Notes: generated by a model not told the origin, from the sequence alone. Counted from the stretch's first letter, positions 6,784 through 48,777 are shown. The stretch is 64,000 nt of DNA from Azolla caroliniana (GCA_043228905.1 JBHGNT010000013.1:8122001-8186000), one strand, 5' to 3'. Translations and numbers: made by a program.

Positions 6784-6786
6784 AAG

Positions 6787-6798
6787 TGGTATCAGAGC
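6787..6798 (+). other. Primer-binding site, initiator tRNA-Met
   Basis: TGGTATCAGAGC 3 nt after the LTR end; the canonical plant iMet PBS. Confidence 0.95.
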
Positions 6799-6814
6799 GA
6801 CGGCAGTGCAGAAA

Positions 6815-10888: not shown

Positions 10889-10898
10889 AGGGGGAGTT

Positions 10899-16200: not shown

Positions 16201-16203
16201 CGG

Positions 16204-19962: not shown

Positions 19963-21119
19963 ACAACTAATCAGTGACCAAGGAGGCCACTTTCTCAACG
20001 TGGTGATTCAGGGGCTCACCCACCATTACACCGTAGTGCACAAGAAGAGCACATCATACTACCCACAGGCGAATGGACTCGCAGAGTCAACAAATAAGAC
20101 CTTGCAGAACATTTTGAAAAAGATCATCAACAAGAACCACACAGACTGGGATATGAAACTACACAACGCCTTATGAGCATATCGAACAAGTTTCAAGACC
20201 AGTATCCAGTCGACTCCATTCTGGCTCATGTTTGGGCTCAAAGCCGTAATGCCTGTAGAATTCCAAGTCCCAAGTTTACAGATACAGATTTGGGAGCGTC
20301 TCCCAAAGAAACAATCTGAATAGTTACGCCTACAGCAACTCCTCGAGCTTTGGGAAGATAGGGTTTGAAGCATGGCAATTCTGGAACAAGAACAACGCCT
20401 TCGAAAGGAGTTTGTAGATCGGGACCGAGGAAGGAACGAAAAAAGTTTCGAGGAGGTAAGGCGCGCTACGAAGAAAACGTGGTCTCCAGCGCAAGCCGAA
20501 TTTCGAACCTCAAAACGGCTCTCGAAGAAATGTGGACGCACACGGAAATGAAGACCAAGCGCATAAAGATCCTCCTAGAAACAAAGCGCGCAAGATTCAC
20601 AGAACAACTTCAAGTGGCGCTGGACAGAGGATGGGCCGAATGGGCAAAGGAGGCCACAGAACTACATACGTATTGGGCCGATCGAGAGAATCGGCAAAAA
20701 GACGATAAGGGCTTCTACAAGTTGAATGAAGAAAGCATTGCCACAATTCGCGAGGACCTTATGCAACATTATCAAACCCTGGCCGACTGACACTCTGAGG
20801 AGATCGTGCAATTACTCGAGGAGTTTGGAGATAGCCAGACTGACACCTCTCTACAACTCCAGTCGATCGACAATGAGCAGAGGAGGGTAGAGGAAGAAAA
20901 ACGGGTGGCGGCCATTGTACTCCCAGACAACAATTTTGGAGAGCACGCAATCGACGGACCTTCGCGGCCAGAAGACACAGTCCCGGAAGTCTCCACGGCA
21001 CCGAAATCACCAATGGCTACACAAATGAATCTCGTCGACATCACGGAAGTTACGGCTGAAGCGACAACTTGAGATGCCTCGCACGAGGAATCGACTCAAG
21101 GCTGAAGTGTGGAAGTTTC

Positions 21120-22000
21120 TGGTGAGGATCGCACATGGTCGCTCACTCCAGCTATTGTTCGTGTTCCAAATCCCGGCGAGTACCGACATGGTCACTCATG
21201 CCCGATGTTGTTCATGTTCCAATTCCTATCGAGGACCACACATGGTCGCTCACACCCATTGGTGTTCGTGTACCAACTCTCGGCGAGGACCAACATGGTC
21301 ACTCACGCCCGTTGGTATTCGGGTTCCAGTCTCCGGTGAGGATCACACATGGTCGCTCACTCTGGCTATTGTTCGTGTTCCAGATCCTGGCGAGGACTGA
21401 CATGGTCGCTCATGCCTGTTGTTGTTCATGTTCCAGGTTCCGATAGGACCACACATGGTTGCTCACGCCCGTTGGTGTTTGTGTTCCAACTCTCGGCGAG
21501 GACCGACATGGTCTCTCATGCCTGTTGGTGTTTGTGTTCCCTGTGAGGACCACACATGGTCACTCATGCCCGTTGGTATTTGTATTCCAGTTCCCGACGA
21601 GGACCAGATGGTCACTCATGCCTGTTCATGTTTCCGATGAGGACCGCACATGGTCAAACACTTTCTGATTCCCGGTGAGGGCCACACATGGTTGCTCATG
21701 TCCGCTCGTGTTCTAGTTCTCAGTGAGACCGCACATGGTCACTCATGTTCCGATTCCCAGTGAGGGACACCCATGGTTGCACACCCCTGCTCGTGTTCAA
21801 GTTCTCGGTCAGGACCGCATGGTCTCTCACTCTTGTTCGTGTTCCAGTTCCCTCACTCTCGTTCATGTTCCACTTCCCCGTGAGGACCACATGGTCACTC
21901 ACGCCCTTCACGTTCCCGATGAGGACCGCACATGGTCGCTCACATCTGTTGATGTTCATGTTTCCAGTGAGGACAACACATGGTTTCTCACTCCCACTAC
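21120..22000 (+). repeat. Tandem minisatellite of about 18 units (53-54 bp, decaying to 38-50 bp)
   Basis: Core GAGGACC(G/A)CACATGGTCRCTCA recurs, with CATGGT near 21134, 21187, 21241, 21294, 21348, 21401, 21454, 21507 and onward. Confidence 0.92.
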
Positions 22001-22466: not shown

Positions 22467-23290
22467 TCTAGCTCCAAGTTCATCCGTCGCTCATAGCCTC
22501 ATAATCTATGCTCCGTCCTAGTCCGCGCTTGGTGTGTCCATGACATAGATGAAGACTGGCACATAGAACATGTGCCGACCGACGCTTCCATGGATGAAAA
22601 ATTGTAGCAAGCGCAACTACAAGAGGCGGCACCGGAGTCAACAGACCCCACCAGCCTCCCCGATTTAATGCCAACCGAATCGAGCGAACTCCTCGATCCT
22701 GCATCGATAGAAGCGACTGGACCTCTCGACACCGCATCGACGACATAGTCTCCAATGAACCCACCGCAACTAACGAGTCTAACCATCCAGAGCCAAATAT
22801 TCTGAACATTTTTTATGACGAATGAAGGGCTGAGGTGGGTTCGATCATGCCAGCACTGTCCACAGGTGTGCCATGTGTTGGCCGCCTTGGACGGCCAAGT
22901 GGGAAAACCGAGAAAAGAAAAGACCCAAGGACGGTTACGACTTGTGAAATACACGGGTGGGGGTTGTAGCGTAATTATGAAAGAATAGTAGCAATCGTAG
23001 AATAGGGCAAAGCCTAATGAATGCATGTAATGGTTCACATGGCAAGCGTAACTGACCATGACCTTGTATATAAAGGGCATGGAAAACTTGTAATAGGGAG
23101 CTTGGAAATTCATGTATCCAGCTCGGAATATAGTTTCTGTTTTGCCCAACTATATGTGCTCTCTGTGTTTTGTGCTATGCATAAATATCGGTGTTGAGTT
23201 ATTTCTGTGTCGAGTATATGCATCCTATAGAATCGCGTAAGGAATCGGTTGTAGCCGTCTTCCCAACCTTCACAGTCTCCACGCTTACGC
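22467..23290 (+). mobile_element. Fragment of another LTR element: 3' internal region, PPT and LTR from 22965 (resumes 34757-34849)
   Basis: gggtgggggt PPT then TGTAGC at 22965; TATATAAA near 23067. It is interrupted by element E at ACGC, and the putative LTR end ..GTAACA at 34849 abuts copia RT codons. Confidence 0.5.
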
Positions 23291-24147
23291 TGTCGTGTGA
23301 ATCTTCACACACTATGTAAAAAATAATGAAATAATTATTATAGATTAGATTAGTAGCTTACTATAGAAAGATGGATATACTCAAGAGCTTCAAAACGTAT
23401 TTTAATATATACAAAATGGAGAAATACATATCAAGTTATGTGAAAATAAAGTTTGAGAAGATAGGGAAATTAGAACTATCCCACATAGATAGGAAAGTTA
23501 AGGCCCTGGTTATATAAGCACCTTGAGCTCCCTCATTTTTCATTTGTGCTAAGAGCACTTTGGCCACTTTGTCTTGATGGATGACGGTGGCCAAATTCCC
23601 TAAAACCGGAAACTGGCCGGTAAGCAAATCCGGAAAACGGGTCCGGTAAACAAATTCGGAAAACGGGTCCGGTAAGCAAATCCGGAAACCAGACGGTATG
23701 CAAACCGGAAACAGGCCGGTAAGCAAAAACGGAACCGGAACCGGCCGGCAAGCAAAATCGGAACCGGAACCAGTCGGCAAGCAAAATGGAACCGGCTACC
23801 GGATGAGGTTGGACGCGGATGGACGGAAGATTGGATCATGTAACAAACTAAAGTGAAGTGAAGAGAGCTAAAGTAAAGGCCATGTGGACGCAAGCAACTA
23901 AAGTTGGAGTGCATGCAAAAAGTAAAGGTCATGTGGACGGTCACATGCAACTAAAAGAAAAAGTCATGCAACTAAAAATAGATGCAACCAAAAGAAAAAG
24001 CTAGGCAACTAAAAGTAGAGGCCATGCAACAAAAAGTGGAATGGTTGTGATCAAGGGAGAACTCTATATATATTCCATTTTTCTTTTTACACTCGGGCTC
24101 TCCATCTTATATATTATTTTTCTTTTCCTTCTTAGCTCCCTAATCTT

Positions 24148-24312
24148 AGGGAAGCCATAACTCTCATAATTCCTAAATTCCCTACGGAAGCCATAACACT
24201 CAAAAACCCTAAAATTCCCTACGGAAGCCATAACACTCAAAAACCCTAATCTTCCCTACGGAAGCCATAATACTCATATAACCTAATCCTAATTTTCCCT
24301 ACGGAAGCCATA
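24148..24312 (+). repeat. CCCTACGGAAGCCATA repeats (~40-47 bp period) in E LTR; also at 34357-34521
   Basis: Five GGAAGCCATA copies in each LTR. Confidence 0.85.
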
Positions 24313-24450
24313 TCTACCAAAACCCCTAATTTTTCTTTTCTATTAATCTTAGTAAACCCTACGGAGGCATATAGATACAAAGAACCGAAGAGATGCAAAC
24401 TATATGAGTTCAATCAATGGGTATCATCATTAAAGACCCACTAAAGTGCC

Positions 24451-26244
24451 ATGCATGCTTTCGTTGAGTTCAAGTGTCGCTTTGCACAACTCTCAGAGCG
24501 GGATCAAAGATTGGTGGGGGTGGAAAAAGTCCTAATGTTTGTGAAGTCAATCGATCGGAAGGAAAGGAATGCCATTGGAATCCGACTTGAGGATGATGAT
24601 GGTGCAAATGGCCTCACCGAGGATTGGACGAAAGTGGAAAGAGTATGTCAACTGCACGATAAGAGGAAGACAAGATTCTTATCAGCAATAACACAATCCA
24701 TGACGAATGGTGAAAGGAGGACAAGAAGCAACTACAAAGTACCACCTAAAGAAGAAAACTCGAAGAGGGAAGGTTCAACAATACTCGACATAGAAGTCTT
24801 GATGGAAGAGGCATTCGAGAACTTAAAGGCGCAAGTTGAGGCTGAAGAGAAGCTTCAAAAGGAGCAAAAATTGAAGCAAATGATGAGCGAAGAAGAAGAA
24901 GCCTCCCAACAAATGCGGATAAATGTTATGGTTGATACAAAGGCCCAGGTTCGGTACCATGATGTGACCATGGGAGAAGATGTGCAACAAGACGCCTTCT
25001 CGTCTTGCAAAGAAACAATGGCGAAGAATGAAACAAATGAATCAAGGGTGGCGAATGCCACTTCAAGTAAGGGCAAATGCTTCGAAACACGCATTGTGTC
25101 TGAAACATCAAGTGATGAAAGTGCTAGCATGAGCAATGCTTGCATGATCAAGGGAGAAAAAAAATGTGAGGCCAAAATGATTGACGAGATAGCCATGAAA
25201 AACAACATCGAGTCAAAGGTGGCTAAGGACCAGTGAATGACGGATGGCCGTGTCATGACTTTCTCCACATTTGTTCTAGAGACTTGGGCAGATGCGTCGG
25301 AAAGCAAACGTGAGACCCAAGAGACGGAAGGTGGCGGCGAGGAAGTGAAGGCCAAGGCTAATACATGCGAAGAAGAAGGAGACGTTAAGCCGAAGAGGGT
25401 AGAAGACGATCATGAAGAGACTTTCCCCACAAAAGTTCTTGAGACTTGGGCATTAACCGATGTAAGACCCAAGCGAAGGACGGTTGCGGCAAAGAAACAA
25501 AGATCAACGCCAACACGAACAACCATAAGGTGGAAGTGGCAAAGAGTAGCACGACAAAGGCAATGCCAAACTACAAAATTCCTCCACACTCGTTTGAAAG
25601 ACTTGGGCATTAATCGATGTAAGACCCAAGAGAAGGATGATGGCGGCGAGGAAGCAAGGGTTAAAGCCAATGTGTGCAACAAGGAAGTAAAGCAAAGCAA
25701 AATGACGAAAGTCCATGTGTGCGACCAAGAGGTCAAGCAAAGCATGAAGACAAAAGCAAATGTGTGCGACAAAGAGACCAAGCAAACCTCAAAAAGTAAA
25801 GATGGGGGCCAAGTGGGCCAATCGGATACGAAAGATGTGATCACAAAATCTAACAAGGATAATACTAGCATAGAAGTCATAGTCAATTCTAACACAAGAG
25901 TATACCACAAAAGTGGACAAAGTGGGAAGCATGCGATGTGGTCACTTAACGACCTAGAGGAAAGCATGCCGCTAAAGAACGAATTGCTAAGAGTACTCAA
26001 GAATAGTATTTCGATAAGGCTTTTGAAAGACATGGATGGAACAAGAAAGAATGATAAGAGAAAATTAGATGACCAAGGAGATGGTCGAAATGAAGGTGGC
26101 ACATGCACGAGGCATAAAGTATTATGCTCAAGAGGAGCAAAGAGAGCCATGACAACCGGTTATGGAAATGCAAAGAGTAAACGAAGAATATGGTGGATCG
26201 GATGGAAATGGCGATTCGGGTACATCAACGAAAAATTAAAGTAA
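24451..26244 (+). pseudogene. Gag-like ORF with long charged, internally repeated extension (one in-frame stop at 25234-25236)
   Basis: EFKCRFAQLSERDQ..VLMFVKSIDRKERNAIGIRLEDDDG..LTEDWTKVERVC aligns with C2 Gag EFEECFARL..VLLFVKSVDERDRKQVGLLLETDDGLTADWAVVKRVC. No PR, RT or INT motifs. Confidence 0.75.
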
Positions 26245-26489
26245 ACAAAAATGGGGCCTCACCAAAATTGGCACATACCGGTGGATGTGCAGGTTTGGTG
26301 GGGGCGAATGTCGTGTGAATCTTCACACACTATGTAAAAAATAATGAAATAATTATTATAGATTAGATTAGTAGCTTACTATAGAAAGATGGATATACTC
26401 AAGAGCTTCAAAACGTTGTTGCATTGTTACGCGCCTGCGTGGAGAACAAGGCGGGACCACTGGGGTCTTGGACCGAGGAATAGGTGAGG

Positions 26490-26536
<47 letters not shown>

Positions 26537-27199
26537 GCTCACTCACGTATAGACAAAGAAGCGCACGGGGACGCGTCACAACAACACAGGAGATGCGAGT
26601 TGAGAACACTAGAGTGTGTATGTAAATATAGGCATGTATTTGTATGTATGCAGACGAATCGAACGGTTACAGCCGACCAGGTCAGTGAGGTGGATGCCGA
26701 CGCCTGATCACCCACGCACACAAGAGAGCAAGATGGAGATTCTTCCGGAAGCACACGGGCGTCGACAGAGCAGAATCAGCCTCCTGAGAGCCTGCGCAAA
26801 AGAAAGCTATGGAGAACGACAGAGAAGAAGAGCTCGGTCCCAGTCCGACAGCACTTCGTTCCCTCTAGCGCGCGATCCCCTCTCTCCCCCGTCTCCCTCT
26901 CTTTTATAGCTCAAGGAGGGAGGCCGTTTCACCCGTTTACATCACATTAATTCTCTGTCCTTTCGGACAGAGATACTCCTCGATTTACCTTATAGAATAT
27001 TGCTACCTAGGATTTAACCTTTGTGCCTACCTATCTACTATACGACAAGGGACGTGCCCACGTGTAAGGGCCGGTTCACACACACTATACACGGTTTGTG
27101 CCTGGGGACGGTTTTCTTCACGACATCCGCCCCCACCTAACCGCGCATCCACCGGTATGCGCCAAAACTAGGTTCCTATGGGAGAAAACCGATCCTTGC

Positions 27200-30100
27200 T
27201 TTTATTCCTCGTCTACCGGTTCATCCTCCGCTTCGGGCTACTCGTCGTCGTTGTCCATACCCCCTAGCCCCGGCTCCCCGTCGTGCCGTTTCTTGAACGC
27301 TTTGATCCTCTTTCCCGCTACTGGTATCGCCATTCTCGTACTGTCGAGCTCCGCGAGATGGTACGTCCCATTGCCGTTGGCACCTGTTACTATGTAAGGC
27401 CCGAACCACCTCCTCGCAAACTTCCGCGTGGCCCTGTGCTGATTGTCGAGGATGCTGTCATAGACTAGCACCCAGTCGCCTTCCTCGATCTTCCTTGGCC
27501 TGAACCGATGTGTTCGGTCGAACCGGGCTTTGTTCCTTATCCTCGCTACTCGAAGTTTCTCCGCGGCTCGCTCTACGTCCTCCGGCCTCCGCTCGAGCTG
27601 TCAAATCCGTGCCGCCAACAGTTCCTCCCGGCTCATCTCATCCCTCCAGTACATCGTGGCCCACGAGGAGATCGTTCGCTCTGTTGGTATGATCGGCTTC
27701 TGTCCGAAAATCAGCTCGGCCGGCATGAACCCGGTTACCGAACTGTGCGTAGTTCGGTCCGCCCACAAGGCATAAGGTAGCAGCCGTGGCCAGTCCCCGA
27801 CTCGGCCTCCACACTGCCGTACTAGCGCTTTGACAATTGGCCCGTGTCCACGCTCCACCTTCCCATTCGCCTCCGGATTGTACGCTGTGGTGAGCGAAAG
27901 TTTGACTCCTAGCCGGTCGAACAGCTCTTCGGCCTCTTCTACGTCCAACTCACCATGGTCAGCCACGATCTTCCCTACGCACCCGTATCGGCATACTACG
28001 TCCTCAATCAAAAACCGGCACACGGCTGCCGTCGTCTTGTTCTGCAGGGCTCGGCCTTCAACCTGGTTCGTTAGATCTTCCCGAGCCAATGCCAGATACC
28101 GCATCTGTCCTAGCCCCATTAGCATAGTCACCAAATCCACCATCCACTTGAAGTGGACGGTCGGAGGGTAGGTCGGGTGAAGCTCGTCCCGATGTCGGAT
28201 CATGGAGTGCACCTGACAGCTTTCGCAAGTCGTCACGAACCGATGCACGTCCCGGTATAGTCCCGGCCACCAGTACTTCCCCTTTAGCTTTTCGAACGTG
28301 GCCCACGTTCCACGGTGTCCAGCCCACGGGCTATCATGGTACGCCGCCACTCGGAGCGGGATGTCGTTCCTCTTCTTCGGGTGCTTCCATATGTATCCGT
28401 CCCGGAGAAAGAATCGGTAGGCTTTCTTCCGAATCCGGTTGGCCTCGTCTGTTGTCTATGCCACGTTCGGTGTCATTGTTTTCAGGAACCTGCCGATCTG
28501 TAGCCACTCCCCGTCGTACTTGCTCTCGTCGAAATCGTTAAGCGTTGGAGAGCATTCCCTGCCGGTTGTTACGTGAGCTGCCTCAAAGAAGTCCACGCCG
28601 ACTTCCTCATCCTCTGAAACCATGCCGCCGTCGTTTTCGAACCTCGCCCTTAAAAGCATGTCAGCCATGGCGTTGTCTTTCCCGGAAATGTGTCATATTT
28701 CCGGATTTAGAGACTTGATGTACGCTATCCACCTGAGCATTGCCAGGTCCGGTGTCACGCATCCGGAAACCATGCCAAGGATCGGTAGGCAGTCTGTCTC
28801 GATAATTACCTCTGTCCCGACCAGGTAGTCTTTATCGGCCTTTACCGCCGAAACGATACCCCAAAGCTCGCGTTTAACCTGGGCGTATCCTCGTTGTCGC
28901 TCGCTGAGGACCTTCGCGCTGAACCGGATTGGGGAACGCATGCCATCCTCGTCCTCTTGGTCGACGACCCATCTGATCCCGGTCGGACTCGTGTCTACTG
29001 TTACGTAAATTGGAGTGCTCTTTTCGTAGACAGCCTTTCAGAGCACCGAAGCCGCGGCAAGTGCTTCCTTCATCTTCCGGACAGACTCCGTATGCTCGTC
29101 TCTCCACTCGAATTTTTGCCCCTTTTTCAGCAACCCATATAACGGCTCTGCGACGTGAGCATAATGCAGGATCCATATGTGGTAGAACGCGCACGCTCCC
29201 AAGAACCTCCGAACCTCCGTGACCGAGCTACAAATGTTCTTCATCGCAAAGATGGCTTCTACCTTAGCCGGAGACGGTTTCCGGCCGTACGGCCCGCATA
29301 GGTGTCCGACAACCATGATCTCTGATTGCCCGAAGGCCGATTTTCCCCCGGAGAAGGTGAGCCTCGCGCTCTCCAACCTCTGCAGCACCTTCTCGCAGTC
29401 ATCGATGTGCGTCGTCACAAATTTCCGGCATCCGTCCGGTCCAATCGTCTCGTCCCTTTCCTCCACCGCGCATCCCTTGATCGGGACGTCGTCCAAAAAC
29501 GGCATGGTGATGTCCGGGATACAATCCCTCAACACTTTGTTCATTGCGTTCACCATGTGAGCCACCGAGTTCGTCCCTCCTTGCGGTAGGGTACACATCC
29601 GTACTACGCATTGTCGTGATGTCTCTGCTCTCTACGGCAAGCTGGAACTGATCGTACCCCGAGTAGAGATCACCGACCGAGTAAATTGACCTTCCGGCGA
29701 AGGCCTCCGTGAACTCGTCTATTGTCGGTCTGATTCCTGCGTTTCGAATGGTCACCTTGTTGACCGGCTGCAGGTCTTGAATAAAGCGCAGCGTGTCGTC
29801 CTTCTTCGGCACGGTAAACCACCGATTCGAGTATGGGGCACTCGACGGTTCGAGGGTTCCCATCTCAACCTTCTGCTTTAACAGCTCCATCAGCTTCGGG
29901 ATGTGAGCTCTGGGTATTGGAATCGGTTTGAGACTCCACGGCACATGCGGTACCGTGAATATCACCATCGGTTCCACGGCTGTCGGGTCTACGCACCTGA
30001 TCTCTTCCGGTGAGAATGCGAAAGCCTTCCCGTGCCTTCCGAGCATTCCCCGAAAACGGTCCTCTTCCACTAGCAGTAGGAAGCCGCCCCCACCGATTTT

Positions 30101-30643
30101 GAGCTCGCGCAACGTTATGTCGGTGAACGTGTGTCCTATGCGGGCCGGATTTCGTAAACTCGGGTCCGACGCAACCCCCTTTATTCGCAACTCGCTGCCC
30201 TCCGGCAAGGGAGCCACGACTGACCTCACCTTCCGGTCCACAGTCTTGTACCTCGTGTCCACCCGAGCCGTCTGATCCAACTCGAGCCCTCTACTGAATT
30301 CCGCGATGACTTCGTACATCTTTTCCGAACATACCGAAATCGTCCGGTCCTCTTTAAGGACTCCTCCGACTACCTCCCGCAGCTCCCCCAAGGTATCGTC
30401 GAAAGAGACCGCCTCCACGGCTCCGTTGATTTCCTCTCCGAGGTCGAGGACGCCACATGCCCGAAGTCGCTCCTCCGCCCTTCTCTTCTTCCAGCCAACA
30501 ACGTCGACTATCGTACACCCTCCGTTGTCGGAGAACCAAAATTCCCTACTTATAGCACAGGTCTTCTTCGCTATCATACACTTCTGGGGTTTTCCCGGAG
30601 TGTCCGGACTATCGCGGCCCCACGCCTTGATAGCCCTCTTCAA
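27200..30643 (-). pseudogene. RT-RNase H-integrase ORF of C2 (-1 frame to gag-pro), disrupted by a small deletion near 29600 and stops
   Basis: PYSNRWFTVPKK, DLYSGYDQ, LPQGGTNS, FLDDV, ETDCL, HDSPWAGHRG..CESCQ, YNPEANGKVERG, RWFGPY. Confidence 0.9.
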
Positions 30644-30649
30644 AAATCC
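30580..30649 (-). other. Putative -1 programmed ribosomal frameshift cassette
   Basis: Minus strand G GAT TTT TGA, a 6-nt spacer, then stem GGGCTATC/GATAGTCC with loop TGGGG complementary to a downstream CCCCA. Confidence 0.75.
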
Positions 30650-32766
30650 TCCCGGCTTTCGCCCCCGGGGGTCTCGCGGTTCCTCTCATGGTTCGGTCTC
30701 ACCGTCAGGAACTGGACTGAGTGACGCCCATCCTGGCTCTTGACCTTTGCATAGGCCGAGCCGTTGTCCAGCACCTTGGTCTCCATCCGTGCTGCCGTGA
30801 TGTACGGTTCTCCTAGTATAACCAGATGTGAGGATGTCTCTTGCATGAAGAAGTGTTGGTCAATCTCGACATCGCCGATCTTTACTCGTACATTCGGGCA
30901 GGCTCCATGCAGTTCTTCGGTGGCACGCGTCGCCGCCCGTATCTTCCACCTGTGCTTGGTGTTGATCGGCCATTTCCCCTTCTTGTAGAAGTCCATGGAC
31001 ATCAAATTGATTTCTGAACCGTGGTCCACCAACGCCACCACTAGTTCATGAACATCTCCGATCTTCACGGGGGTCTCCGTGGTCACTCTGGCCCAGTGCG
31101 GCCTCGAATAGTGGCTCTCTGCCAACTCGTCTTCCAGCGCCATGCCCTCTATGTGCGTCGTTCGCACCTCCACCGGCTTCTCCAGTTCTGTCTCTGTCGA
31201 CAGCCTCTTCCTCTTCACCAAGTCTACGATGGAGTCGTGGAACTCCTTCTTGGCGATCCCGAGCACTTCCCTCAACGACAGTTCCACCTTGCTGTCGAGG
31301 ATTCGTTCTTCCAGGACCTTTCGCACGTCCGTGGATCTTTCGATTTCTGTGCCCAGCCAGTACCCGCCCTTCTTGGGATTATCCTGGAAGCCGGTTACAC
31401 CGGCCTCATTCTGTCTTTGCCCGAATCGAGTTTCATATCGTTGCGAGGGCCCGGCCCCTCCGGTTTTTCCTACCCGCTTGTCCTCGACCAGAGCCTCGTA
31501 GTTTTGACAAGCGGCTTCGACGAAGCCCGTCTTTTCTTCCACCGGGTCACTCCACCCGGTTACCTCCCGAACCCGCTTTTCCACGCGGTCCACCTCTTCT
31601 TTCCTCAGCCGTGTGCCGACGAGGCCTTCCAGCATCGTCGGCCAGAACCCGGCTTTGTTCGTCTTCGGGGCCTCGCCACCTCCGACCCGAATACCAGCTG
31701 ACGCCGAGTAGTGGACGGTCTCCGCGTGACGAGCCGCCGCCTCCTCCATCAGCCTTTTCATACCCCCTCGCCCGACGTTCAGGTTCAGGGCCCTTCGGGT
31801 CTCGCTGGCGTGCACCCGACCATTCCACAGGTACACCACATTGCTTCTCATCGCCTCAGCGAAGTCCCCGCAGTCCTTCTGGATGTGCCCAACCACATCA
31901 CACCACATGCACCTATTTTCAGCCAGAGGTCGTCGGTCACGGGCCTGTTCGCCACTATCCCTCCGTGCCTGGGCGATCTGGAGATCCTTTACCATCCGCA
32001 TCAGCTCCTCCAGAGCTACTCCCCCGGACAAGCCCTTGACCATGCCAGTTGAAGCCGACCCGGTCTCGAGCCAATCTTGGGTCTCTTCCCTTCGCGTTGG
32101 TGGTGTTGGCTCGAGCTTCTTTGCTGCGACAGAGCCCGCCCCTATCGATCCTTTGTCAACCCATTCCCGTCGTTTGTCGAAACGGCCACAGACCCTTTTC
32201 ACCACGGCCCAGTCGGCCGTCAACCCGTCATCAGTCTCCAATAGGAGGCCTACCTGCTTCCGATCCCGCTCGTCAACCGACTTAACAAACAACAGGACAC
32301 GGCTTGTGTCCAGAACGGTCCGGTCAAGCACCCAGAGGCGCGCGAAGCATTCCTCAAACTCCCGAAGGAGCACTGACGCCTTCCTTCCTTTGTCGGGGGT
32401 CTCCACCCACTCCATGAAGTCCCGCTTCGAAAGTCGAAGCGCATCTTCAAGCCCGTATCTTTCGAGGAGCCGACCTTCGAACTCCTCCCAGGTCTGGCTC
32501 TCGGCCCGTACCTCGAGCACCTCCGTATGGATACCCGGCATCGCCACTCGAGGGAATCCGGCTAGATGCCTCTCTTCCGGAATGTCCCTCATTACCATCT
32601 TAGCCCGGTAGGACGCCAAGTAGCTCGTGGCATCCTTCCCACTAAACCGGCCGATCGTACCGACAACCGCCTTGATAGCCCTATCAAGGGCGCCGGTGCC
32701 TTCGCGCGTACTCACTATACGGTCTACAGCCGAAGCCATGGCTTCTGCAAGGTCCGACCCCCTCAT
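30640..32766 (-). CDS. Gag-protease ORF of gypsy C2, 708 aa
   Basis: Open frame starting about 22 nt after the PBS; knuckle CMWCDVVGHIQKDC; aspartic protease ALVDHGSEINLM..ILGEPY. Confidence 0.9.
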   Translation of the reverse strand: MRGSDLAEAMASAVDRIVSTREGTGALDRAIKAVVGTIGRFSGKDATSYLASYRAKMVMRDIPEERHLAGFPRVAMPGIHTEVLEVRAESQTWEEFEGRLLERYGLEDALRLSKRDFMEWVETPDKGRKASVLLREFEECFARLWVLDRTVLDTSRVLLFVKSVDERDRKQVGLLLETDDGLTADWAVVKRVCGRFDKRREWVDKGSIGAGSVAAKKLEPTPPTRREETQDWLETGSASTGMVKGLSGGVALEELMRMVKDLQIAQARRDSGEQARDRRPLAENRCMWCDVVGHIQKDCGDFAEAMRSNVVYLWNGRVHASETRRALNLNVGRGGMKRLMEEAAARHAETVHYSASAGIRVGGGEAPKTNKAGFWPTMLEGLVGTRLRKEEVDRVEKRVREVTGWSDPVEEKTGFVEAACQNYEALVEDKRVGKTGGAGPSQRYETRFGQRQNEAGVTGFQDNPKKGGYWLGTEIERSTDVRKVLEERILDSKVELSLREVLGIAKKEFHDSIVDLVKRKRLSTETELEKPVEVRTTHIEGMALEDELAESHYSRPHWARVTTETPVKIGDVHELVVALVDHGSEINLMSMDFYKKGKWPINTKHRWKIRAATRATEELHGACPNVRVKIGDVEIDQHFFMQETSSHLVILGEPYITAARMETKVLDNGSAYAKVKSQDGRHSVQFLTVRPNHERNRETPGGESREDF

Positions 32767-32787
32767 CTTCTACTCCTCTGCCGCCTG

Positions 32788-32805
32788 TTCACGTCGAGTT
32801 CACCA
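32788..32805 (-). other. Primer-binding site complementary to cytosolic tRNA-Trp
   Basis: The + strand TTCACGTCGAGTTCACCA matches the plant tRNA-Trp 3' end as I recall it (TTCACGTCGGGTTCACCA) at 17 of 18 positions; it lies 4 nt from the LTR. Confidence 0.8.
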
Positions 32806-34849
32806 AATATGTCGCGTTGTTACACGCGTGCGTGGAGAACAAGGCGGGACCACTGGGGTCTTGGACCGAGGAATAGGTGAGGAAAAGAGAGAGAGAGAGA
32901 GAGAGAGAGACGCTCACTCACGTATAGACAAAGAAGCGCACGGGGACGCGTCACAACAACACAGGAGACGCGAGTTGAGAACACTAGAGTGTGTATGTAA
33001 ATATAGGCATGTATTTGTATGTATGCAGACGAATCGAACGGTTACAGCCGACCAGGTCGGCGAGGTGGATGCCGACGCCTGATCACCCACGCACACAGGA
33101 GAGCAAGATGGAGATTCTTCCGGAAGCACACGAGCGTCCACGGAGCAGAATCAGCTTCCTGAGAGCCTGCGCAAAAGAAAGCTATGGAGAATGACAGAGA
33201 AGAGGAGCTCAGTCCCAGTCCGACAGCAGTTCGTTCCCTCTAGCGCGCGATCCCCTCTCTCCCCCGTCTCCCTCTCTTTTATAGCTCAAGGAGGGAGGCC
33301 GTTTCACCCATTTACATCACATTAATTCTCTGTCCTTTCGGACAGAGATACTCCTCGATTTACCTTATAGAATATTGCTACCTAGGATTTAACCTTTGTG
33401 CCTACCTATCTACTATACGACAAGGGACGTGCCCACGTGTAAGGGCCGGTTCACACACACTATACACGGTTTGCGCCTGGGGACTGTTTTCTTCATGACA
33501 ACGTATTTTACTATATACAAAATGGAGAAATACATATCAAGTTATGTGAAAATAAAGTTTGAGAAGATAGGGAAATTAGAACTATCCCACATAGATAGGA
33601 AAGTTAAGGCCCTGGCTATATAAACACCTTGAGCTCCCTCATTTTTCATATGTGTGCTAAGAGCGCTTTGGCCACTTTGTCTTGATGGATGATGGTGGCC
33701 AAATTCCCTAAATTTGGAAACTGGCCGGTAAGCAAATCCGGAAAACGGGTCTGGTAAACAAATTCGGAAAACGGGTCCGGTAAGCAAATCTAGAAATCGG
33801 CCGGTATGCAAACCGGAAATAGGCCGGTAAGCAAAACCGGAACCGGAACCGGCAAGCAAACCGAAATCGGAAACCGGCTGGTATGCAAACCGGAAACAGG
33901 CCGGTAAGCAAAACAGGAATCGGAACCGGAACTGGCAAGCAAACTGGAACCGGCCGGCAAGCAAAATCAAAACCAGAACCAGTCGACAAGCAAAATGGAA
34001 CCGGCTACCGGACGAGGTTGGACGCGGACGGACGGAAGATTGGATCATGTAACAAACTAAAGTGAAGTGAAGAGAACTAAAGTAAAGGCCATGTGGACGC
34101 AAGCAACTAAAGTTAGAGTGCATGCAAAAAGTAAAGGTCATGTGGACGGTCACATGCAACTAAAAGAAAAAGTCATGCAACTAAAAATAGATGCAACCAA
34201 AAGAAAAAGTTAGGCAACTAAAAGTAGAGGCCATGGAACAAAAAGTGGAATGGCTATGATCAAGGGAGAACTCTATATATATTCCATTTTTCTTTTTACA
34301 CTCGGGCTCTCCATCTTATATATTATTTTTCTTTTCCTTCTTAGCTCCCTAATCTTAGGGAAGCCATAACTCTCATAATTCCTAAATTCCCTACGGAAGC
34401 CATAACACTCAAAAACCCTAAAATTCCCTACGGAAGCCATAACACTCAAAAACCCTAATCTTCCCTACGGAAGCCATAATACTCATATAACCTAATCCTA
34501 ATTTTCCCTACGGAAGCCATATCTACCAAAACCCCTAATTTTTCTTTTCTATTAATCTTAGTAAATCTAAAACTTCTAAATCCCAATCTTGGGACATATT
34601 GTAATTTCTTTTTCCTTTGTTAATGAAAATTATTAAATTTCTTCTTTCTGTTAATTGTTAAAAATATAAACGCACGAATGTGATTATCCTCTGGTCGGAG
34701 GCCCCGGGGTCCGGCCTCAAAGTTCACGTATCCTCGTCGTATTTCCGCGATAACGCCATGATGTACTCTCCATTCTCTGAACCACAATCTCCTTGAGCCG
34801 AACCCCGAAGGACTAAGGGTTAGGCACTATGTAACCTGAGCCAGTAACA

Positions 34850-36866
34850 TTTTCCATGTCGAAGTCGGACTCCTCACTTTTCATCTAGCAAGGTCGGAGT
34901 GGGCCGATTAGTATTTTACTTTACGTTGATGACTTTGTCATCATCAGTGCTGACCAAGAAGAAATTAGTCACGTCAAGTCTCAAGTAGCAGCATCATTCG
35001 ACGTGAAGGATCTGGGGGACCTTCATTACTTCCTCGTGATCAAAGTGATCCGCACCCCTGAAGGCATACTTATCAGCCAGCGACACTATGTGTTGAGTAT
35101 GCTCCTCAGGTTCGGCATGACAGAGTGCAAGTCCATCTCAAATCATCTGGATAGGAATGTGAATCTTTGCCCCGACTTCGGAACGACATGTGACCCGAAA
35201 AGGTTCTGACAGATAGTCGAAAGCCTTATATACTTGACCATCACTCGGTCGGACCTTAGCTATCCGGTCAGCTTGATTAGTCAATTCATGGCGCATCCGA
35301 CCGTGGTGCATCTTCAGTGTGCACAACGAATACTTATGTATGTCTGCGGCACTTGTTGTATCAGACCGATATTGTCGAACAGTTGGTCGGCTACACAGGT
35401 GTTGATTGGGCCAAAAATCTCGGCGATCACAGGTCTACATCGGGTTTGGCTTTTTCACTTGGAAGCGCCACGATCACCTGCAGTAGCAAGAAGCAGTCGA
35501 CGGTTGCACTGTCAAGCACGGAGGCCGAGTATCGAGGAGTAACTGTCACGATGTGCGAAGCCATATGGCTCAAAAGGCTATTGAAGGATTTGCAGGTGGA
35601 GGCATCTAATCCGACAACATCAACTGCATCCAAGTTGTGAAGAACTCCATCTTCCACGCCCAGACCAAGCACATTGAGGTGCACTATCATTTTGTCTATG
35701 AGCAAGGCCTTTCCGGTGAAGTCGAGCTGGTCTATGTTTCGATGGATCGGCAGACTACCGATATTCTCACCAAACCCCTTAGCTTGGACAAGTTGTAGCA
35801 ATTTTTGAGTGCGCTTGGTTCGCAACATCTCGATGTGTCGAACTTGAGAGGGAGAAATAGAGAAAGGAGTGAAAGAGACCAGAAATCCGGGTCAGATGAA
35901 GAGTTCGACTTCGGGTTGGCTGAGGAAGCTGAATACAGATACAAGGGGAGCCGAAGGGACGAGTCGGAGCTGGAGCCAACTGAACAAGGGGGAGGTAAAG
36001 CCAAGAAGGGCAAAGAGGCCAAGACCAAGACATGGTCGGATGTGGTCAAGGGCCTAAAGGAGGAAGACAAAGCGGAGACAATTGATCCAGTTGACCAAAT
36101 CGATTTGGACAAGCCAAATCATATAAAGTCCAAGTTGACGATAGGACAGTCGAAGCCCACACCAAAACAAAGGAATCATCGGGTCAATGAGCACTGAAGT
36201 CGCAACAGCGAGGGAGATGACAAGGCCCTTATGAGCAGACAAGCCAACCAAAAGGGTTGAGGTGTGCGAAACTAGAGAGGTCAAAAACGAAGGACTTGAG
36301 GGGTTGAGGAACGCAAAATTGAACCGAACAAGGAGTGCGAGCAAGGCATGGAGACGCTAGGAAGAGTCGAATGTTGACTCAAGGAGAACCTCAAGTTGAG
36401 CTTGAGGGGGAGTGTTGAGTGAGCAAGCTCAACTTGGGCAGGATCAATTGAAGAAGCCGAGAACCGGATCAGATTGGACCGATTGGTTAGGCCCGGATCA
36501 ACTGAAGAAGCCGAGAGCCGGATCGGATGGAAACCAATCGGTGAGACCGGATTGGTGGGAGCTGAAAGGCTGTTGGAAAGATATTCCGTGATGGAATATA
36601 TTTGGGAGTTAGTGTAGGGGCTCATTTATGAGCATTCAAGTACTGACAATACTTGTGTCAATCCTTTTAAGGACTTGTATAAAAGGGCTCTCTGAGCACA
36701 TTCGATGTACAGAATGAGCACCATTTTTTAATAGAGTTCTTTGTTGTCTATCTGTTTGCCTCTCTCTCTCTCACCTAGTCTACATATTCCATTCTCTGTG
36801 TTTTCTATTGCATTCCGGTTGAGCCGGTTGTGATCTATGTTTAGTTTCCGCACTGTAAGTCTTTCA
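34850..36866 (+). mobile_element. 5'-truncated Ale-like copia (B2): RT/RNase H, acidic extension, PPT, 3' LTR 36413-36866
   Basis: [42 protein letters not shown]; ttgagggggag then TGTTGAG. Confidence 0.88.
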
Positions 36867-36945
36867 TTTGTTTATCTCGCCCTTGTCCTTTTCTCTTTTC
36901 GGACAGTTCCTAGCATTCAAGTTGCAATTTGTTGGCAATGCAGAC
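36867..36945 (-). pseudogene. Tork-like copia RT fragment (host of B3; continues 43488-43530)
   Basis: Joined across the TSD, the minus strand reads LERFNMSEAKPVGSALPTNCNLNARNCPK, like LQRFNMSEARPVGSSLPANCKL in copia A. Confidence 0.75.
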
Positions 36946-37236
36946 TATTGAGAGACAAGCTCAACATTCGTGCGTAATACGATGCGTAACCTAGTGCGTA
37001 GACTAGGTGCGTAAATCGGTACGCATAACATGGCCGTATCAATGCGTAAACCGCGAGGCCGTTGGGAAAATATTCCTTATAAGGAATAATTTTGGGAGTT
37101 AGTGCAGTACGCACATTTATGAGTGGTCAAGTATTGTCGGTACTTGTGTCAGCCCGATTGTCAGGGCTTGTATATAAGGTGCTCACTGAGCACGAAGTAT
37201 GTACAAATTGAGTATTATTTTGAATTGAGTTTCTGT

Positions 37237-37295
<59 letters not shown>

Positions 37296-40200
37296 CGTAT
37301 TGTGTATATTCAAGCTCTCCATTAAACCTGCGTATTTTCTATGTCCACACATAATTTTTTTCATGGTATCAGAGTGCGAGGGTTGAGAACCTCTGCAGCC
37401 GACATAGCTTGAAAAGAAAACTAACCAAGAAGAATAGGAAAAACAAAATGGATAGAGGCATGGCGAGCTCGCTTCCTACCAAGAAGCTCGACAAAAACAA
37501 GTACGCGTCTTGGTCCTACAAGATGCACCAGTAGCTGCTCGGGCACGGTTACTAGAGCTATGTCGACGGAGCAAATGACACAGCACCCGAATCGACACAC
37601 TGAGATTTCCCGGCATGGGAACAGTCGGCGAGTAGAGTATTGTACTGCTTCACATCTTGTGTGGGTGAACAACTCCTGAGCTATATTCGGGATGCGAAAA
37701 TGCCAAAGGATTCTTGGGGAAATCTAAAGAAGATTTTTGCCGTGAGCACCACAGCCAGGAAGCTTCAACTCCGACAAGAGTTGAGCAATTTACGACAACG
37801 CGACTTGTCAGTGGCTGATTACACCTCGAAGATCAAAGAGATATATGCGACTCCTTAGCCTCTATCGATGTGAACGTCAAGGAAAGCGAGATGGTGCAAA
37901 TTTGTCTCGGGGGACTGGTGTTGAAGTTCGAAGCGTTCCGAACTACTGTGTGTACACGGGAGAATACGCCATCGTTTTTCGACTTACAGTCGATGCTCCT
38001 TATAGAGGAGAACCACGCGGGTGCGTCAACAAGCACCCATGCCGACAACAAGATGTTGTACACGGAGGGAGATAGGCCCCGTGGCCGTGGCGGACGAGGC
38101 GAGTCGGTGCGCAATGGAGGCGGCTGACGTGATCAAGGAAGGAGGCACTGAAGTGATGTCACAGCAATTCCGAACCCTCTGGAAATAGGGGGAGTCGAGG
38201 CGACAAGAACCGGCAAGGGAAATCTGTCACGGAATGCTGGTATTGTGGCAAAAAAGGCCACAGGGAGAGCAAGTGTTAGAAAAAGCGCATCGATTCAGAG
38301 AGAGCCGCGTCCCGATCAGGTCCCGGACAGACCGACAAAGGAAATCGGCAACGATTGCACTACGCCGAAGGATCCGGAAAAGAGTTATTCTTCGAGACGA
38401 GACACAAAGCAAACTCGATGAAGAAGCTCACCCCGAAGTCGGACGAGGTGTGGTACGTTGACTCCGGCGCGTCAAACCACATGACGTGCCACAAGGAGTG
38501 GTTCTCATACCTTGAGAAACCGATGCAACCGGGAGTAGTCGCAACCGGAGACGACACTCCCCATCCGATCGCGAATGTCGGTGAAGTTCCCCTGAGCCAT
38601 GTCGGGCAAAAAGGGAAACTCATGAACGTGTTACACGTTCCAACAATCACGAAGAACCTATTGTCAGTCGAACAGATCGTCGACCAGGGGATGCAGGTTC
38701 AGTTCACGCATCTTGGGTGCTTCATCGAGGAAGAAGGCCGAGTTATTGTGCCAGGGCGCAAAGACAAGAGGATGTTTATCCTCGACTCTAGTGACGGTGG
38801 CACCGCAATGTTCGCGAAAGGACAAAAAATCAAGTCGGATATCGACTTATGGCACAAGCGGATAGGCCACATCAACTATCAACGGCTTCAAGACTTGCAA
38901 TCGAAACAGGTGGTGTTCGGATTGCCCAAATTTAGTGGTCGGAATGCACGAATTTGTGAAGCCTGCCAACTAGGGAAGCAACACCGACTTCCTTTCCCCA
39001 ATGAGCGTAACCGGAGTCGGAACAAGCTCGACTTGATACATTCCGATGTATGGGGGCCAGCACAGAACGTTAGTCTTGGTGGGAGTCGATATTTCGTCTC
39101 CTTCATCAACGACTTTACGTGGCACACGTGGATCTACCTCATTGAGAAGAAGAGTGAAGTCTTCGATTGTTTCCGTGACCTCAAGAGTTTCGTCAAAAGG
39201 GAAACAAGAAGAAAGATCAAGTGCTTGCGGTCGGATGGCGGAAAAGAGTACTTTTCCGGTCAATTCAACGGCTATCTGCATTAGATGGGAATTCGGCGCG
39301 AATTCAGTTGTAGATACATGCCGGAGCAAAACGGCGTGGCCGAGAGGAAGAACCGATCAATTGTAGAAGCGGCACGGGCAATGCTGGAGGAGAAGAGCTT
39401 GCCCAAGTTCTATTGGGCGGAGGCGGTACGAACCGTGTTATACATCCAGAATTGGATCAAAGAAAAAGTGTTGGTGCATGAGCAGTATTTCGGAAGGAAG
39501 CCGAACCTACGACACTTGAGAGTCTTCGGTAGCATTGCATATTTTCATGTACCGAAAGAGAAACAAAGGAAGTTGGACGCAAAAGCCAAGAAGTGTATCT
39601 TGGTCGGCTATTCGGACAAGCAGAAGGGTTATAAGTGTTATAACTCTTGCACCAAACAAGCGGGTGTGGGCCGCAACGTTGTGTTTGACGAGTCAACGTC
39701 CTGGTACTTGCCTTCGACTCCGGAACTCACCCCTAAACCAAGTTCTAACAATGAGGTCAGCGAGGCCGACATGCCTCTGGATGAGCCTAAAATCGGGACC
39801 CGCGAAGAGAGTCCGATTTCGGTTCGGTTAAGCGGACCGGATGGATAACTAAGTCGGTTTGACCAGTCCGATGAAGAGCCGGCGAGTAGTGGAGACTCGG
39901 TCGTGTATTCCCAGCGTAGGAAGCCGAGGAGGCGGCTACGCGCAAGGAAAAAGGGAAGAACAAGGTGTCGGATTACAGCACGGATAGGAACAAGTCAGAT
40001 TGACGCAAGTCCGACTCCGAGGGAAGTGATGACGGGTCTTCGAGAGCGAAGTCCGCATCGGCTAAGAAAGCCTCAACATCTGCTAATGAGCAATTACCCC
40101 GATCTACCCGTCAAAAGAACCTTGTTGTGTGGTTCGGATACAATGAGTACATGATGCATCACTATGCGTACATGACCCATGTAGCGGAAGTGCGTGCGCC

Positions 40201-43200
40201 GGAGAGCTACACAGAAGCTGCGAAGGACGCAAATTGGCGCGCCGCAATGGAGGATGAGATGTGCGCATTAGTGGAGAATGAAACCTGGGACCTGGTTGAT
40301 GCACTGAAAGGTGTGAAGACGATCATATGTAGGTGGGTGTACAAGGTCAAGTACAACACTGACGGCTCAGTCAACCGATACAAGGCCTGATTAGTAGTGA
40401 AAGGCTACATGCAGAAACATGGCATCGACTACGATGAGATGTTTGTGTCGGTCGTGAAGATGACGACCATCCGTGTTTTGCTCGCGGTAGCTGCGGCAAA
40501 GGGGTGGCACTTACATCAAATGGATGTAAAGAATGTGTTCCTGCAAGGTGAGCTTGAGGAACAAGTGTACATGGTACAACCCCCTGGATTTCACTCCGGA
40601 AATAGCACTTCGGCAGTGTGCCGATTGAAGAAGTCCCTTTACAAACTAAAGCAAGCCCCGCGTGCCTAGAATGCGAAGATCACGCAACGTTTGCGATAGT
40701 TGGGCTTTACAACGTCAAAATTGGACTCCTCACTGTTCATCCAGAAAGGTCGACTCGGGCCGGTTAGCATTTTACTTTATGTTGATGACTTGGTCATCAC
40801 CAAAGCCGACCTAGGTGAGATTGACCGCGTGAAGCTCCAACTTGCGGCATCATTCGACATGAAGGATCTGAGGGACCTTCATTACTTCCTCAGGATCAAA
40901 GTGATCCGCACCCCCGAAGGCATACTAATCAGCCAACGACATTACGTGCTGAGTATGCTCTTCAAATTCGGGATGGCCGATTGTAAGTCTGTCTCGACTC
41001 CTCTGGATAGAACTGTCAAGCTTCGCCCCGATTCCGGAAAGGTATGCGACCCGACGAGGTTCCGACAAATAGTCGGGAGCCTTATATACTTGACCATCAC
41101 CCGACCAAATCTCAACTACCCGGTCGGGGTGATTAGTTAGTTCATGGCGCAACCGACCGAGGAGCACCTTCAGTGTGCACAACGCGTACTCCGGTACGTC
41201 AGTGGCACTAAGGACTGGGGGCTACTATATCGGACCGATACTGCCGCGCAGTTGGTCAGTTACACCGATGCTGATTGGGCTGGAAACGCCGGCGATCGCC
41301 GATCCACGTCCGGTTTCGCGTTCTCTCTTGGGAGTGCCGCAATAGTGTGGAGTAGCAAGAAACAGCCGACAGTTGCGTTGTCGACCACCGAAGCCAAGTA
41401 TAGAGGAGTGGTTATCGCGACGTGCGAAGCCATATGGTTGAAGCGGCTACTTAAGGATCTGCAGGTGGAGGTATCCGATCCAACGACAATCTACTGCAAC
41501 AACCTCAGCAACATCCAGCTAGCAAAGAACCCCGTCTTCCACGCCCGGACTAAGCACATTGAGGTGCACTACCATTTCGTCCGTGAGCGTGTCCTTTCCG
41601 GTGAAGTCGAACTTTAGTATGTTACGATGGATCGGCAAAACGCTGACATCTTCACCAAGCCCCTTGGTCTGGACTAGTTGCGGCAATTCTCGGGTGCACT
41701 TGGGTTGCGTTACCTCGATGTGCCGAACTTGAGGGGGAGAGATGTCCGTGATGACCACGGAAGGGAGCAGGAAAGGAGCGGAAAAGATTGTGACGCTGAG
41801 TCGGATGACGAATTCGATCTCGGATCGGCTGAAGAAGCCGAGGGCGGATCCGCGGAAGAGTCCGAAAGCGGACATAAGGTGAGCAGTCAAAAGAAAGAGC
41901 CGAAGCCAACCAAGCGTGGGGGAGACGAAGCCATCAAGGGCGAGAAGACCGAAGACGAGTTGGAGACAGCCAACTCGGACAATAGCAAAAACCGATCGGA
42001 GGAAGCCGAGTCGGTTCGGATGTTTGATTCGGATACGTTGTCGTAGTGTAATTTGCACACTACGTGAAAAATTACATTTTTGGTCTCTCCGGATAGGGCA
42101 TGGAGTACCCGGTGAGAACCGGAAGAAGGAACCGATAAGGACCGAAACCGGTAAGGAGACCCTGCAAGAGCCGGATGAAGCAGAACCGGTAAGAGCCGGA
42201 TGAAGAAGGCCGGTGAGAGTCTCTCACCAGATGAAGAGACATATTTGTAAATAGAAGAAAGTATAAAATTATATATATTACATGCATAGGGCAAGATTCG
42301 AACCTTGCACCTCCATGTTAATAATGTTAAGCCTTATCATTATACTAGCGTATTATGAATTTTAAAGTTATACTAAACTTTATCCCATGTAAAATTTCTA
42401 GATATGCATGGTACAAAAAGTTATTCGTGCATAGACACTCGAGTTAAAAGAAAAGATGAGATAGAAAGCTAATCATGCACATGCAGTGTGCATGAAAACT
42501 AAAAATAGGAAAAGCATGATGCTTGCATGTAATAAACTTAGACTCTTCCAACACTATATAAGGAAGAGAGAAAGATGTATAGAGGTTGTTGATTATTTTA
42601 CAAGGGTTGATTAATATAATATAATCGTGGGATCCACGAGTTTGCTAACTATTTTTTCTCTCTTAATTTGAGTACTCACTAATACACTATGCTCGTGGGA
42701 TTCACGAGCTTTTCATATCTTTCTTTCTTACAATATATTTCATATTCTTAATCGCCTTAGAATTTTCTTTCCTCCTAGTCCAAAACCCCAACGGTTCCCA
42801 CCCGACTCACGCAACGATCCAAAGCCGTAAGGCACGACAACGCTGAATCAACCAAGGGCCAAGCAGAAGAGAAGGCAGCAGAAGAGGCGCCAACACCGCA
42901 ACAGCAAGGAAGCTGAGAAGGGTCGTGTAAGCATACAAGCCGACCGGAAGGGTCAAGGCGTGCGGATTCGAACGGGTCGAGGAGCGCGAGCGAGGCGTGA
43001 AGCCAGAAGGAACCGGAGCGTAGATCCGGCGGAGCAGGTGGAACCTCAAGTTAAGCTTGAGGGGGAGTGTTGAGAGACAAGCTCAACATTCGTGCGTAAT
43101 ACGATGCGTAACCCAGTGTGTAGACTGGGTGCATAAATCGGTACGCATAACATGGCCTTATCGGTGCGTAAACCGCGAGGCCATTGGGAAGATATTCCTC

Positions 43201-48382: not shown

Positions 48383-48777
48383 ATTTAGTGTCTTTGTCTT
48401 TGTCTATCTATAGTTCAAAAAGATATAAATGGCTGGGGGGGCGGGGGGGGGGGAGCTCAAGCCTGCTCACTTTTGAGGCGTCAAATCCCGAAACGGTTTC
48501 AGAGAGGTTTGATGGCTTGGTTCAGGCTTTAGCGGAACCGTTTTGCCTACTCCATTGGTGATGGGGCATTGGGGTCCTCTTCTTCTTCATCTTCTTCGTA
48601 CTCGCCTCAGCCTCCTGGCAGCTAGCTAGCTAGCTACCTACTAACAAGCGGTCGGTCCCTCCTACGACGACTCCGACTACTCGATTCAAGAGAGCCTTCC
48701 TTCCTTCCTTCCTTCCTTCCTTCAAGAAAGCATTCCAGAGAGAGAGCAGGCAGGCAGGCAGGAGGGAGATTTAGGAA

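What the first reader, a model, noticed from the sequence alone, without database searches (positions are those of the whole stretch)
23287..42794. Gypsy C/E group makes 4-bp TSDs that all begin ACG: possible sequence-specific (CpG) integration
Seen: C2 is flanked by ACGT/ACGT, and the empty site CAAAACGTATTT is visible in the sister LTR near 23391, which fixes the TSD at 4 bp. E is flanked by ACGC/ACGC and the related solo LTR at 42039 by ACGT/ACGG. The copia elements and chromovirus in the same window have unrelated 5-bp TSDs (ATTTT, CAGAC, TTCAG, CATAT/CATCC). Known: most plant LTR elements make 5-bp TSDs with weak preference, whereas 4-bp sequence-specific TSDs typify insect errantiviruses. 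Inference: this integrase targets ACGN, possibly methylated CpG, steering insertions into TE-rich chromatin without a chromodomain. Only 3 sites are available and the third right boundary is uncertain.
Basis: partly seen in the sequence, partly recalled or inferred. Interest (0 to 1): 0.8.

Follow-up and report, generated by a model that had tools for sequence, protein, structure and literature searches.

The report
Moss retrotransposons that insert at CG
These jumping genes, likely from a moss, land on four-letter sites centred on CG, a habit already published for the Phygy group they likely belong to, and whether the CG must be methylated remains untested.

Summary
C2 (26417-33500) has ACGT/ACGT and an empty site fixing 4 bp; E (23291-34752) has ACGC/ACGC; the solo LTR ends at 42839, not near 42790, giving ACGT/ACGC. 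The target is not ACG only. In 80 related metagenome loci, 22 of 27 outer LTR flanks are NCGN (background 6.5%) and 3 more are one C-to-T change away; ACG begins 12 of the 22, T first and A last are avoided (VCGB). Raw reads of a related species agree. The behaviour is published: Neumann et al. 2019 (PMC6317226) give the moss non-chromovirus lineage Phygy a 4-bp NCGN TSD in 100% of 186 elements. C2 fits Phygy (no chromodomain, 46-56% identity to Physcomitrium Gag-protease proteins), though no tree with labelled Phygy references could be built. Most likely the integrase itself selects a bendable central CG step, as 4-bp intasomes and Drosophila ZAM do; nothing here supports or excludes a need for methylation. 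New member of a known kind; modest interest.

The parts
23287..23290 (+). Left TSD of element E, ACGC
23291..24356 (+). E 5' LTR, begins TGTCGTG; its 3' end and the PBS are lost by a deletion near 24356; holds the empty site for C2 (ACGT at 23395-23398)
   Evidence: 97.6% identical to the 3' LTR over 1066 aligned bases
24445..26244 (+). E internal region: short Gag remnant (46% identical to C2 Gag over 68 aa) followed by ORF sequence with no Pfam match; no pol, so non-autonomous
26292..26308 (+). E polypurine tract, same type as in C2 and relatives
26309..34752 (+). E 3' LTR, split by C2 (26309-26416 and 33505-34752); ends CCGCGATA
26413..26416 (+). Left TSD of C2, ACGT
26417..27125 (-). C2 3' LTR
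   Evidence: LTR pair 97.1% identical
27126..27142 (-). C2 polypurine tract
27238..30685 (-). C2 pol (RT, RNase H, integrase), broken by stops and frameshifts; D-D-E triad present; ends in an SH3-type domain, no chromodomain
30640..32769 (-). C2 Gag-protease ORF, 709 aa, weak DUF4100 match
32788..32805 (-). C2 primer binding site, 18 nt, one mismatch to the form in 13 related loci; tRNA-Trp type by recall only
32810..33500 (-). C2 5' LTR
33501..33504 (+). Right TSD of C2, ACGT
34753..34756 (+). Right TSD of E, ACGC
42035..42038 (+). Left TSD of the solo LTR, ACGT
42039..42839 (+). Solo LTR of a third family, TGTCGT...ACGACA, inserted in the 3' non-coding part of a copia element
42840..42843 (+). 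Right TSD of the solo LTR, ACGC (corrected boundary)

Best explanation
C2, E and the solo LTR are chromodomain-free Ty3/gypsy retrotransposons, likely of the moss Phygy lineage, that insert at 4-bp CG-centred sites, and their integrase likely selects the CG step itself without needing methylation. Shown: 4-bp TSDs at three window sites; CG at the centre of 22 of 27 flanks in relatives, with T avoided at the first and A at the last position (VCGB); E is a non-autonomous derivative with the same termini and PPT. Inferred: a symmetric PFV/Ty3-like intasome cuts with a 4-bp stagger and must kink the central step, which favours pyrimidine-purine steps; extra base contacts would narrow this to CG. 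Candidate contact residues (inferred, untested) are the conserved D-R-G-E after the second catalytic Asp, where PFV has D185-Q-G-A188, and the conserved loop before the GPY motif in the SH3-type domain. Because young elements are richer in VCGB than older DNA in this window, this preference alone would tend to nest insertions in other elements.
For: Junctions and empty site. Flank-blind scan of 80 loci: 9 of 11 left flanks have CG at -3,-2 and 13 of 16 right flanks at +2,+3, a symmetry that implies a 4-bp duplication; P about 4e-22 against 6.5% background, edge bias P about 3e-6. Raw reads of a relative: 554 loose ends at the LTR end with consensus starting ACGT; at 33500, 81 + 133 reads run on through xCG, against about 376 not clipped at the terminus. 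Phygy = 4 bp, NCGN, 100% of 186 (PMC6317226). Physcomitrium proteins 46-56% identical to C2 Gag-protease. 4-bp retroviruses select central YR and disfavour T first and A last (PMC4422553 section 6). ZAM integrase binds its CGCGCg target directly in vitro (PMC2527525 abstract). Nearest solved integrases are PFV and Ty3. DRGE: R in 70 and E in 71 of 75 relatives. VCGB 31-42 per kb in three young elements, 7.6 per kb at 44-57.5 kb.
Against: No tree with labelled Phygy sequences (REXdb file not readable). The tRNA-Trp identity of the PBS is recalled; my test found no tRNA gene. C2 is 7,084 bp, below the published Phygy range of 7,656-9,968. All three window sites lie inside other elements, as a methylation reader would also predict. 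In PFV the cited base contacts are at the edges of and outside the TSD, so they do not by themselves explain a strict central CG. Metagenome flanks are one-sided and from collapsed assemblies: L018 has ACGT left and CCGC right, and 2 of 27 flanks fit neither NCGN nor its decay.
Confidence: 0.72

Rival explanations
1. The integrase reads methylated CG, so the 4-bp site is also an epigenetic mark that sends the element into silenced, TE-rich DNA without a chromodomain.
For: All three window sites are inside other elements. Three flanks in relatives and the E-family empty site in another species show CG decayed to CA or TG, so target sites were methylated at some time. Moss CG methylation is concentrated in heterochromatic TEs (PMC6453930 passages). 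Phygy-labelled domains are enriched at centromeres of a liverwort (PMC12885004 passages).
Against: Decay can follow insertion. CG-rich young elements attract a CG-reader without methylation. ZAM binds a CG-rich target directly in vitro, and Drosophila has next to no CG methylation (recalled). No methyl-binding domain was found by Pfam in C2 or P0001.
Confidence: 0.13
2. The CG rule comes from the integrase, but the choice of region comes from a separate host or chromatin tether, as for Ty3 or MLV.
For: The model of a related integrase matches Ty3, whose structure shows tethering to TFIIIB-bound genes (entry title). Nesting of Phygy in Tcn1 was the commonest conserved nested pair in Physcomitrium (PMC6911290 passage).
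Against: No evidence for a tether here; no conserved base preference was apparent at positions 5-12 outside the TSD in 30 flanks. It adds a part that the data do not need.
Confidence: 0.1
3. Only a general preference for flexible pyrimidine-purine steps, with CG appearing because the DNA is CG-rich.
For: 4-bp retroviruses enrich central YR.
Against: 22 of 27 centres are CG, none is TA, and the 3 CA/TG fit decay of CG; background CG is 6.5%. Retroviral YR enrichment is only about 63% over random.
Confidence: 0.03
4. The target is strictly ACGN.
For: All three window sites begin ACG; A is over-represented first (12 of 22, P about 7e-4).
Against: 10 of 22 NCGN flanks begin with C (7), G (2) or T (1); reads show C at the first position in 41 of 212.
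Confidence: 0.02

Closest known systems
Phygy (non-chromovirus Ty3/gypsy clade of REXdb; Neumann et al. 2019, PMC6317226)
   Same: 4-bp NCGN TSD; no chromodomain, no extra RNase H, polyprotein filling the internal region; PBS likely tRNA-Trp; Gag-protease 46-56% identical to five Physcomitrium proteins.
   Different: Described as specific to Physcomitrium; relatives here include other unnamed hosts, Riccia, the fern Adiantum and more distantly Chara. C2 forms its own branch apart from the Physcomitrium proteins and is 7,084 bp, below the published size range. The edge bias (VCGB) was not in the passages I read.
Drosophila errantivirus ZAM subgroup (CGCG targets; PMC2527525, PMC5408687)
   Same: Ty3/gypsy integrase with a short palindromic CG-containing target; direct binding of the target shown for ZAM.
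   Different: Different motif (CGCG; CG is not the single central step); animal lineage; the nearest insect integrase in my hits is only 29-33% identical; no env seen in C2.
Prototype foamy virus intasome and other 4-bp retroviruses (PMC4422553)
   Same: Nearest solved integrase by sequence and fold; 4-bp stagger, central YR, T first and A last disfavoured.
   Different: Their preference is weak and not CG-specific; Ala188 corresponds to a conserved Glu here.
Selgy and TatI (other plant 4-bp non-chromoviruses, PMC6317226 supplement 5)
   Same: 4-bp TSD; TatI also uses tRNA-Trp.
   Different: No NCGN motif reported; Selgy is 4.4-6.7 kb with tRNA-Ala; TatI has an extra RNase H.

Membership tests
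Phygy | Ty3/gypsy order GAG-PROT-RT-RH-INT filling nearly the whole internal region, no extra ORF | tested here: met
   Coding span 27238-32769 of internal 27126-32809
Phygy | No chromodomain | tested here: met
   C2 C-terminus gives only a weak SH3 match, whereas the window's chromovirus gives a weak Chromo match; no PF00385 on P0001-P0097
Phygy | No extra (archaeal-type) RNase H | tested here: met
   One RNase H region in C2 and in the intact relative P0001
Phygy | 4-bp TSD with NCGN motif | tested here: met
   3 of 3 window sites; 22 of 27 flanks in relatives
Phygy | PBS mainly for tRNA-Trp | tested here: inconclusive
   Conserved 18-nt PBS in 13 of 80 loci and C2; match to plant tRNA-Trp is recalled; searches found no tRNA gene or paper to confirm it
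Phygy | Clusters with REXdb Phygy in an RT-RH-INT tree (the formal criterion) | not testable with these tools
   REXdb sequence files too large to read. Surrogates: unlabelled Physcomitrium Gag-protease proteins at 46-56%; integrase clade with Riccia and Chara, apart from chromoviruses, SH-aLRT 99 (no Athila, Tat or Selgy rows)
Chromovirus (Tcn1) | Chromodomain on integrase; 5-bp TSD; self-priming | tested here: not met
Tat / TatI | Extra archaeal-type RNase H | tested here: not met
Errantivirus (ZAM subgroup) | env gene or descent from the insect gypsy clade | tested here: not met
   No room for a third ORF between integrase and PPT; insect and fish integrases fall outside the clade

The most novel reading that the evidence does not exclude
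The Phygy integrase is a methyl-CG reader: an ancient plant retrotransposon lineage, from mosses and liverworts to ferns, that finds heterochromatin by binding the methylated CG at the centre of its 4-bp site, with no chromodomain.
Probability: 0.13. Interest if true: 0.75.

Novelty: new member of a known kind. Interest (0 to 1): 0.25.

Why it matters
The headline is already in print as one line and one table cell for Physcomitrium. What this adds is small: the rule holds across several families 66-89% alike to C2 in other hosts, it can be sharpened to VCGB, and two conserved integrase patches are named for testing. It would matter more if methylation were required, since that would be a new route to heterochromatin targeting; a Physcomitrium met mutant that lost 93% of CG methylation exists (PMC6453930), so the question is testable.

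Tried and rejected
No whole genome was held, so no genome-wide count of paired TSDs in this species. A 5-bp reading AACGT/AACGT at C2 was rejected because the inner LTR ends ...CGACA before the PPT and the empty site holds ACGT once. Viral contigs held no integrase relative. Confirming the PBS as tRNA-Trp failed: 0 tRNA genes in 31 loci and 0 papers. Cluster look-up gave no organism names for ten relatives. The Atlas search gave only generic gypsy integrase clusters. L031 could not be shown to be a true solo LTR: its left flank did not match the empty-site candidate L071. In one search, 31 hits became 30 after removing one duplicate (L061 = L060) and 27 after removing by eye three PPT junctions that the filter missed (L047, L075, L079); before that removal the count was 22 of 30. 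A first, looser pass gave 20 of 23. The integrase C-terminal domain alone had no PDB sequence match, so its loop is matched to PFV by eye and recall only. Logan contigs (X1-X3) gave few junctions. Supplement 1 of PMC7466625 held only legends, so RLG2/RLG3 could not be tied to Phygy. Four look-ups of earlier findings returned nothing. No paper testing methylation dependence turned up in searches; supplements I could not read (PMC6317226 files 1 and 3) may hold more on the motif.

Full report
Anatomy. Self-comparison of the window and the sequence show element E at 23291-34752 on the + strand. Its second LTR is split by C2 (26417-33500, - strand, LTRs 26417-27125 and 32810-33500, 97.1% identical). 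C2 encodes a 709-aa Gag-protease ORF and a pol broken by stops and frameshifts, in the order RT, RNase H, integrase. E has no pol; it keeps a Gag remnant 46% identical to C2 over 68 aa and the same type of PPT, so it is a non-autonomous relative. No genome was held. The host is likely a bryophyte, probably a moss; this is inferred from the homologues only.

The three sites. C2 is flanked by ACGT on both sides. A 5-bp reading is excluded because the inner LTR ends CACGACA before the PPT and E's intact LTR holds ACGT once (23395-98). Contigs in runs X1 and X2 show the same empty site, and 103 reads of run X21 show it with the CG decayed to TG. E is flanked by ACGC/ACGC and ends CCGCGATA at 34752. 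The solo is 42039-42839 with ACGT/ACGC.

The group-wide motif. A search with the intact relative P0001 gave 80 metagenome loci, 66-89% alike to C2 in their longest match. Weight matrices trained only on inner junctions (PPT-LTR and LTR-PBS), with a threshold above the best score on reversed sequence, gave 31 outer candidates; one duplicate and three missed PPT junctions were removed, leaving 27. Of these 22 are NCGN, 3 are one C-to-T change from it (ACAG, CCAT, ACAT) and 2 fit neither. Background is 6.5% (P about 4e-22). CG lies at -3,-2 in 9 of 11 left flanks and at +2,+3 in 13 of 16 right flanks, which implies a 4-bp duplication, although these flanks are one-sided and come from collapsed assemblies. 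My tally of the 22: first base A 12, C 7, G 2, T 1; last base T 10, C 8, G 4, A 0. So the motif is VCGB (edge bias P about 3e-6, noticed after the fact), with A favoured but not required. Raw reads of a related species agree: 554 loose ends at the LTR terminus have a consensus that starts ACGT and then scatters. At 33500, of a depth near 636, 260 reads break at the terminus (mostly PPT), 81 run through xCG and 133 through xCGT; 47 smaller rows were not shown. These reads are not all independent insertions.

What is known. Neumann et al. [quoted passage not shown] Jedlicka et al. 2019 (PMC6911290; passages) also find 4 bp commonest in Phygy, with GC-rich centres in 4-bp TSDs. C2 meets the testable features: domain order, no chromodomain, one RNase H, NCGN. 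Five Physcomitrium proteins are 46-56% identical to its Gag-protease; they carry no lineage label. An integrase tree groups C2 with Riccia, Chara and unnamed relatives apart from chromoviruses (SH-aLRT 99; long branches, and no Athila, Tat or Selgy rows). The 18-nt PBS is conserved in 13 of 80 loci; its match to tRNA-Trp is recalled and my test was empty. The formal tree with REXdb references could not be run. C2 is shorter than the published range, a feature the authors call relatively insignificant for classification.

Mechanism. The nearest solved integrases are PFV (E 4e-18) and, for a model of relative P0026 (mean pLDDT 74.8), PFV and Ty3. Serrao et al. 2015 (PMC4422553; passages and section 6) report that 4-bp retroviruses bend the central step, select pyrimidine-purine there, and disfavour T first and A last, the same edges as seen here. 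Their preference is weak, so strict CG likely needs added contacts. ZAM integrase binds its CGCGCg target directly (PMC2527525, abstract only; review PMC5408687, passages). In this clade the residues after the second catalytic Asp are D-R-G-E (R 70 of 75, E 71 of 75 full-length integrases out of 97 screened; C2 itself has H for R), with the Glu aligned to PFV Ala188, and a loop before GPY is conserved. That these read CG is inference. VCGB occurs 31-42 times per kb in three young elements and 7.6 per kb at 44-57.5 kb, so plain CG reading would favour nesting; this rests on one window. Methylation cannot be judged from these data: decayed flanks show that sites were methylated at some time, not at insertion. 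Searches found no test of it. A met mutant with 93% loss of CG methylation exists (PMC6453930; passages).

Verdict. Real feature, one boundary corrected, motif widened from ACGN to VCGB, and the behaviour already published for Phygy. New member of a known kind; interest 0.25. The methyl-reader reading stays open at about 0.13.

Noticed in passing
window 2720-3283 and 13979-16204: A fourth element of the same group: pol 57-69% identical to P0001, split by the chromovirus, with a PPT near 15893-15910 and a 3' LTR starting at 15911 that is cut off near 16204. No TSD can be recovered.
   Followed up: partly
window 47225-47268: Looks like a decayed LTR 3' end of this group (...TTTGCGACA) followed by ACGC; score 15.1, near the noise limit. 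No matching start was sought.
   Followed up: no
window 24356: E's first LTR lost its 3' end, PBS and Gag start by a deletion at a short repeat resembling the 37-bp tandem unit in the LTR.
   Followed up: partly
P0306, P0019-P0020, P0097: Relatives occur in the fern Adiantum nelumboides (about 50% in Gag-protease), in Riccia (integrase mostly 50-67%) and more distantly in Chara (40%), so the clade is not confined to Physcomitrium. Their TSDs were not seen.
   Followed up: partly
LTR termini of C2, E and loci L001-L080: The termini TGTCG...CGACA hold CG in TCG and CGA contexts, the two that the target motif avoids; this might limit insertion into its own ends (speculation).
   Followed up: no
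window 6106-11575: A very young copia element: LTRs 99.7% identical and an open 1385-aa polyprotein, inserted in the chromovirus.
   Followed up: no
window 21114-21995: Array of about 53/107-bp tandem repeats inside the element that hosts E; that host has an integrase remnant near 19961-20263.
   Followed up: no
window 48775-50568: A 597-aa stop-free frame with no Pfam match in a CG-poor region.
   Followed up: no
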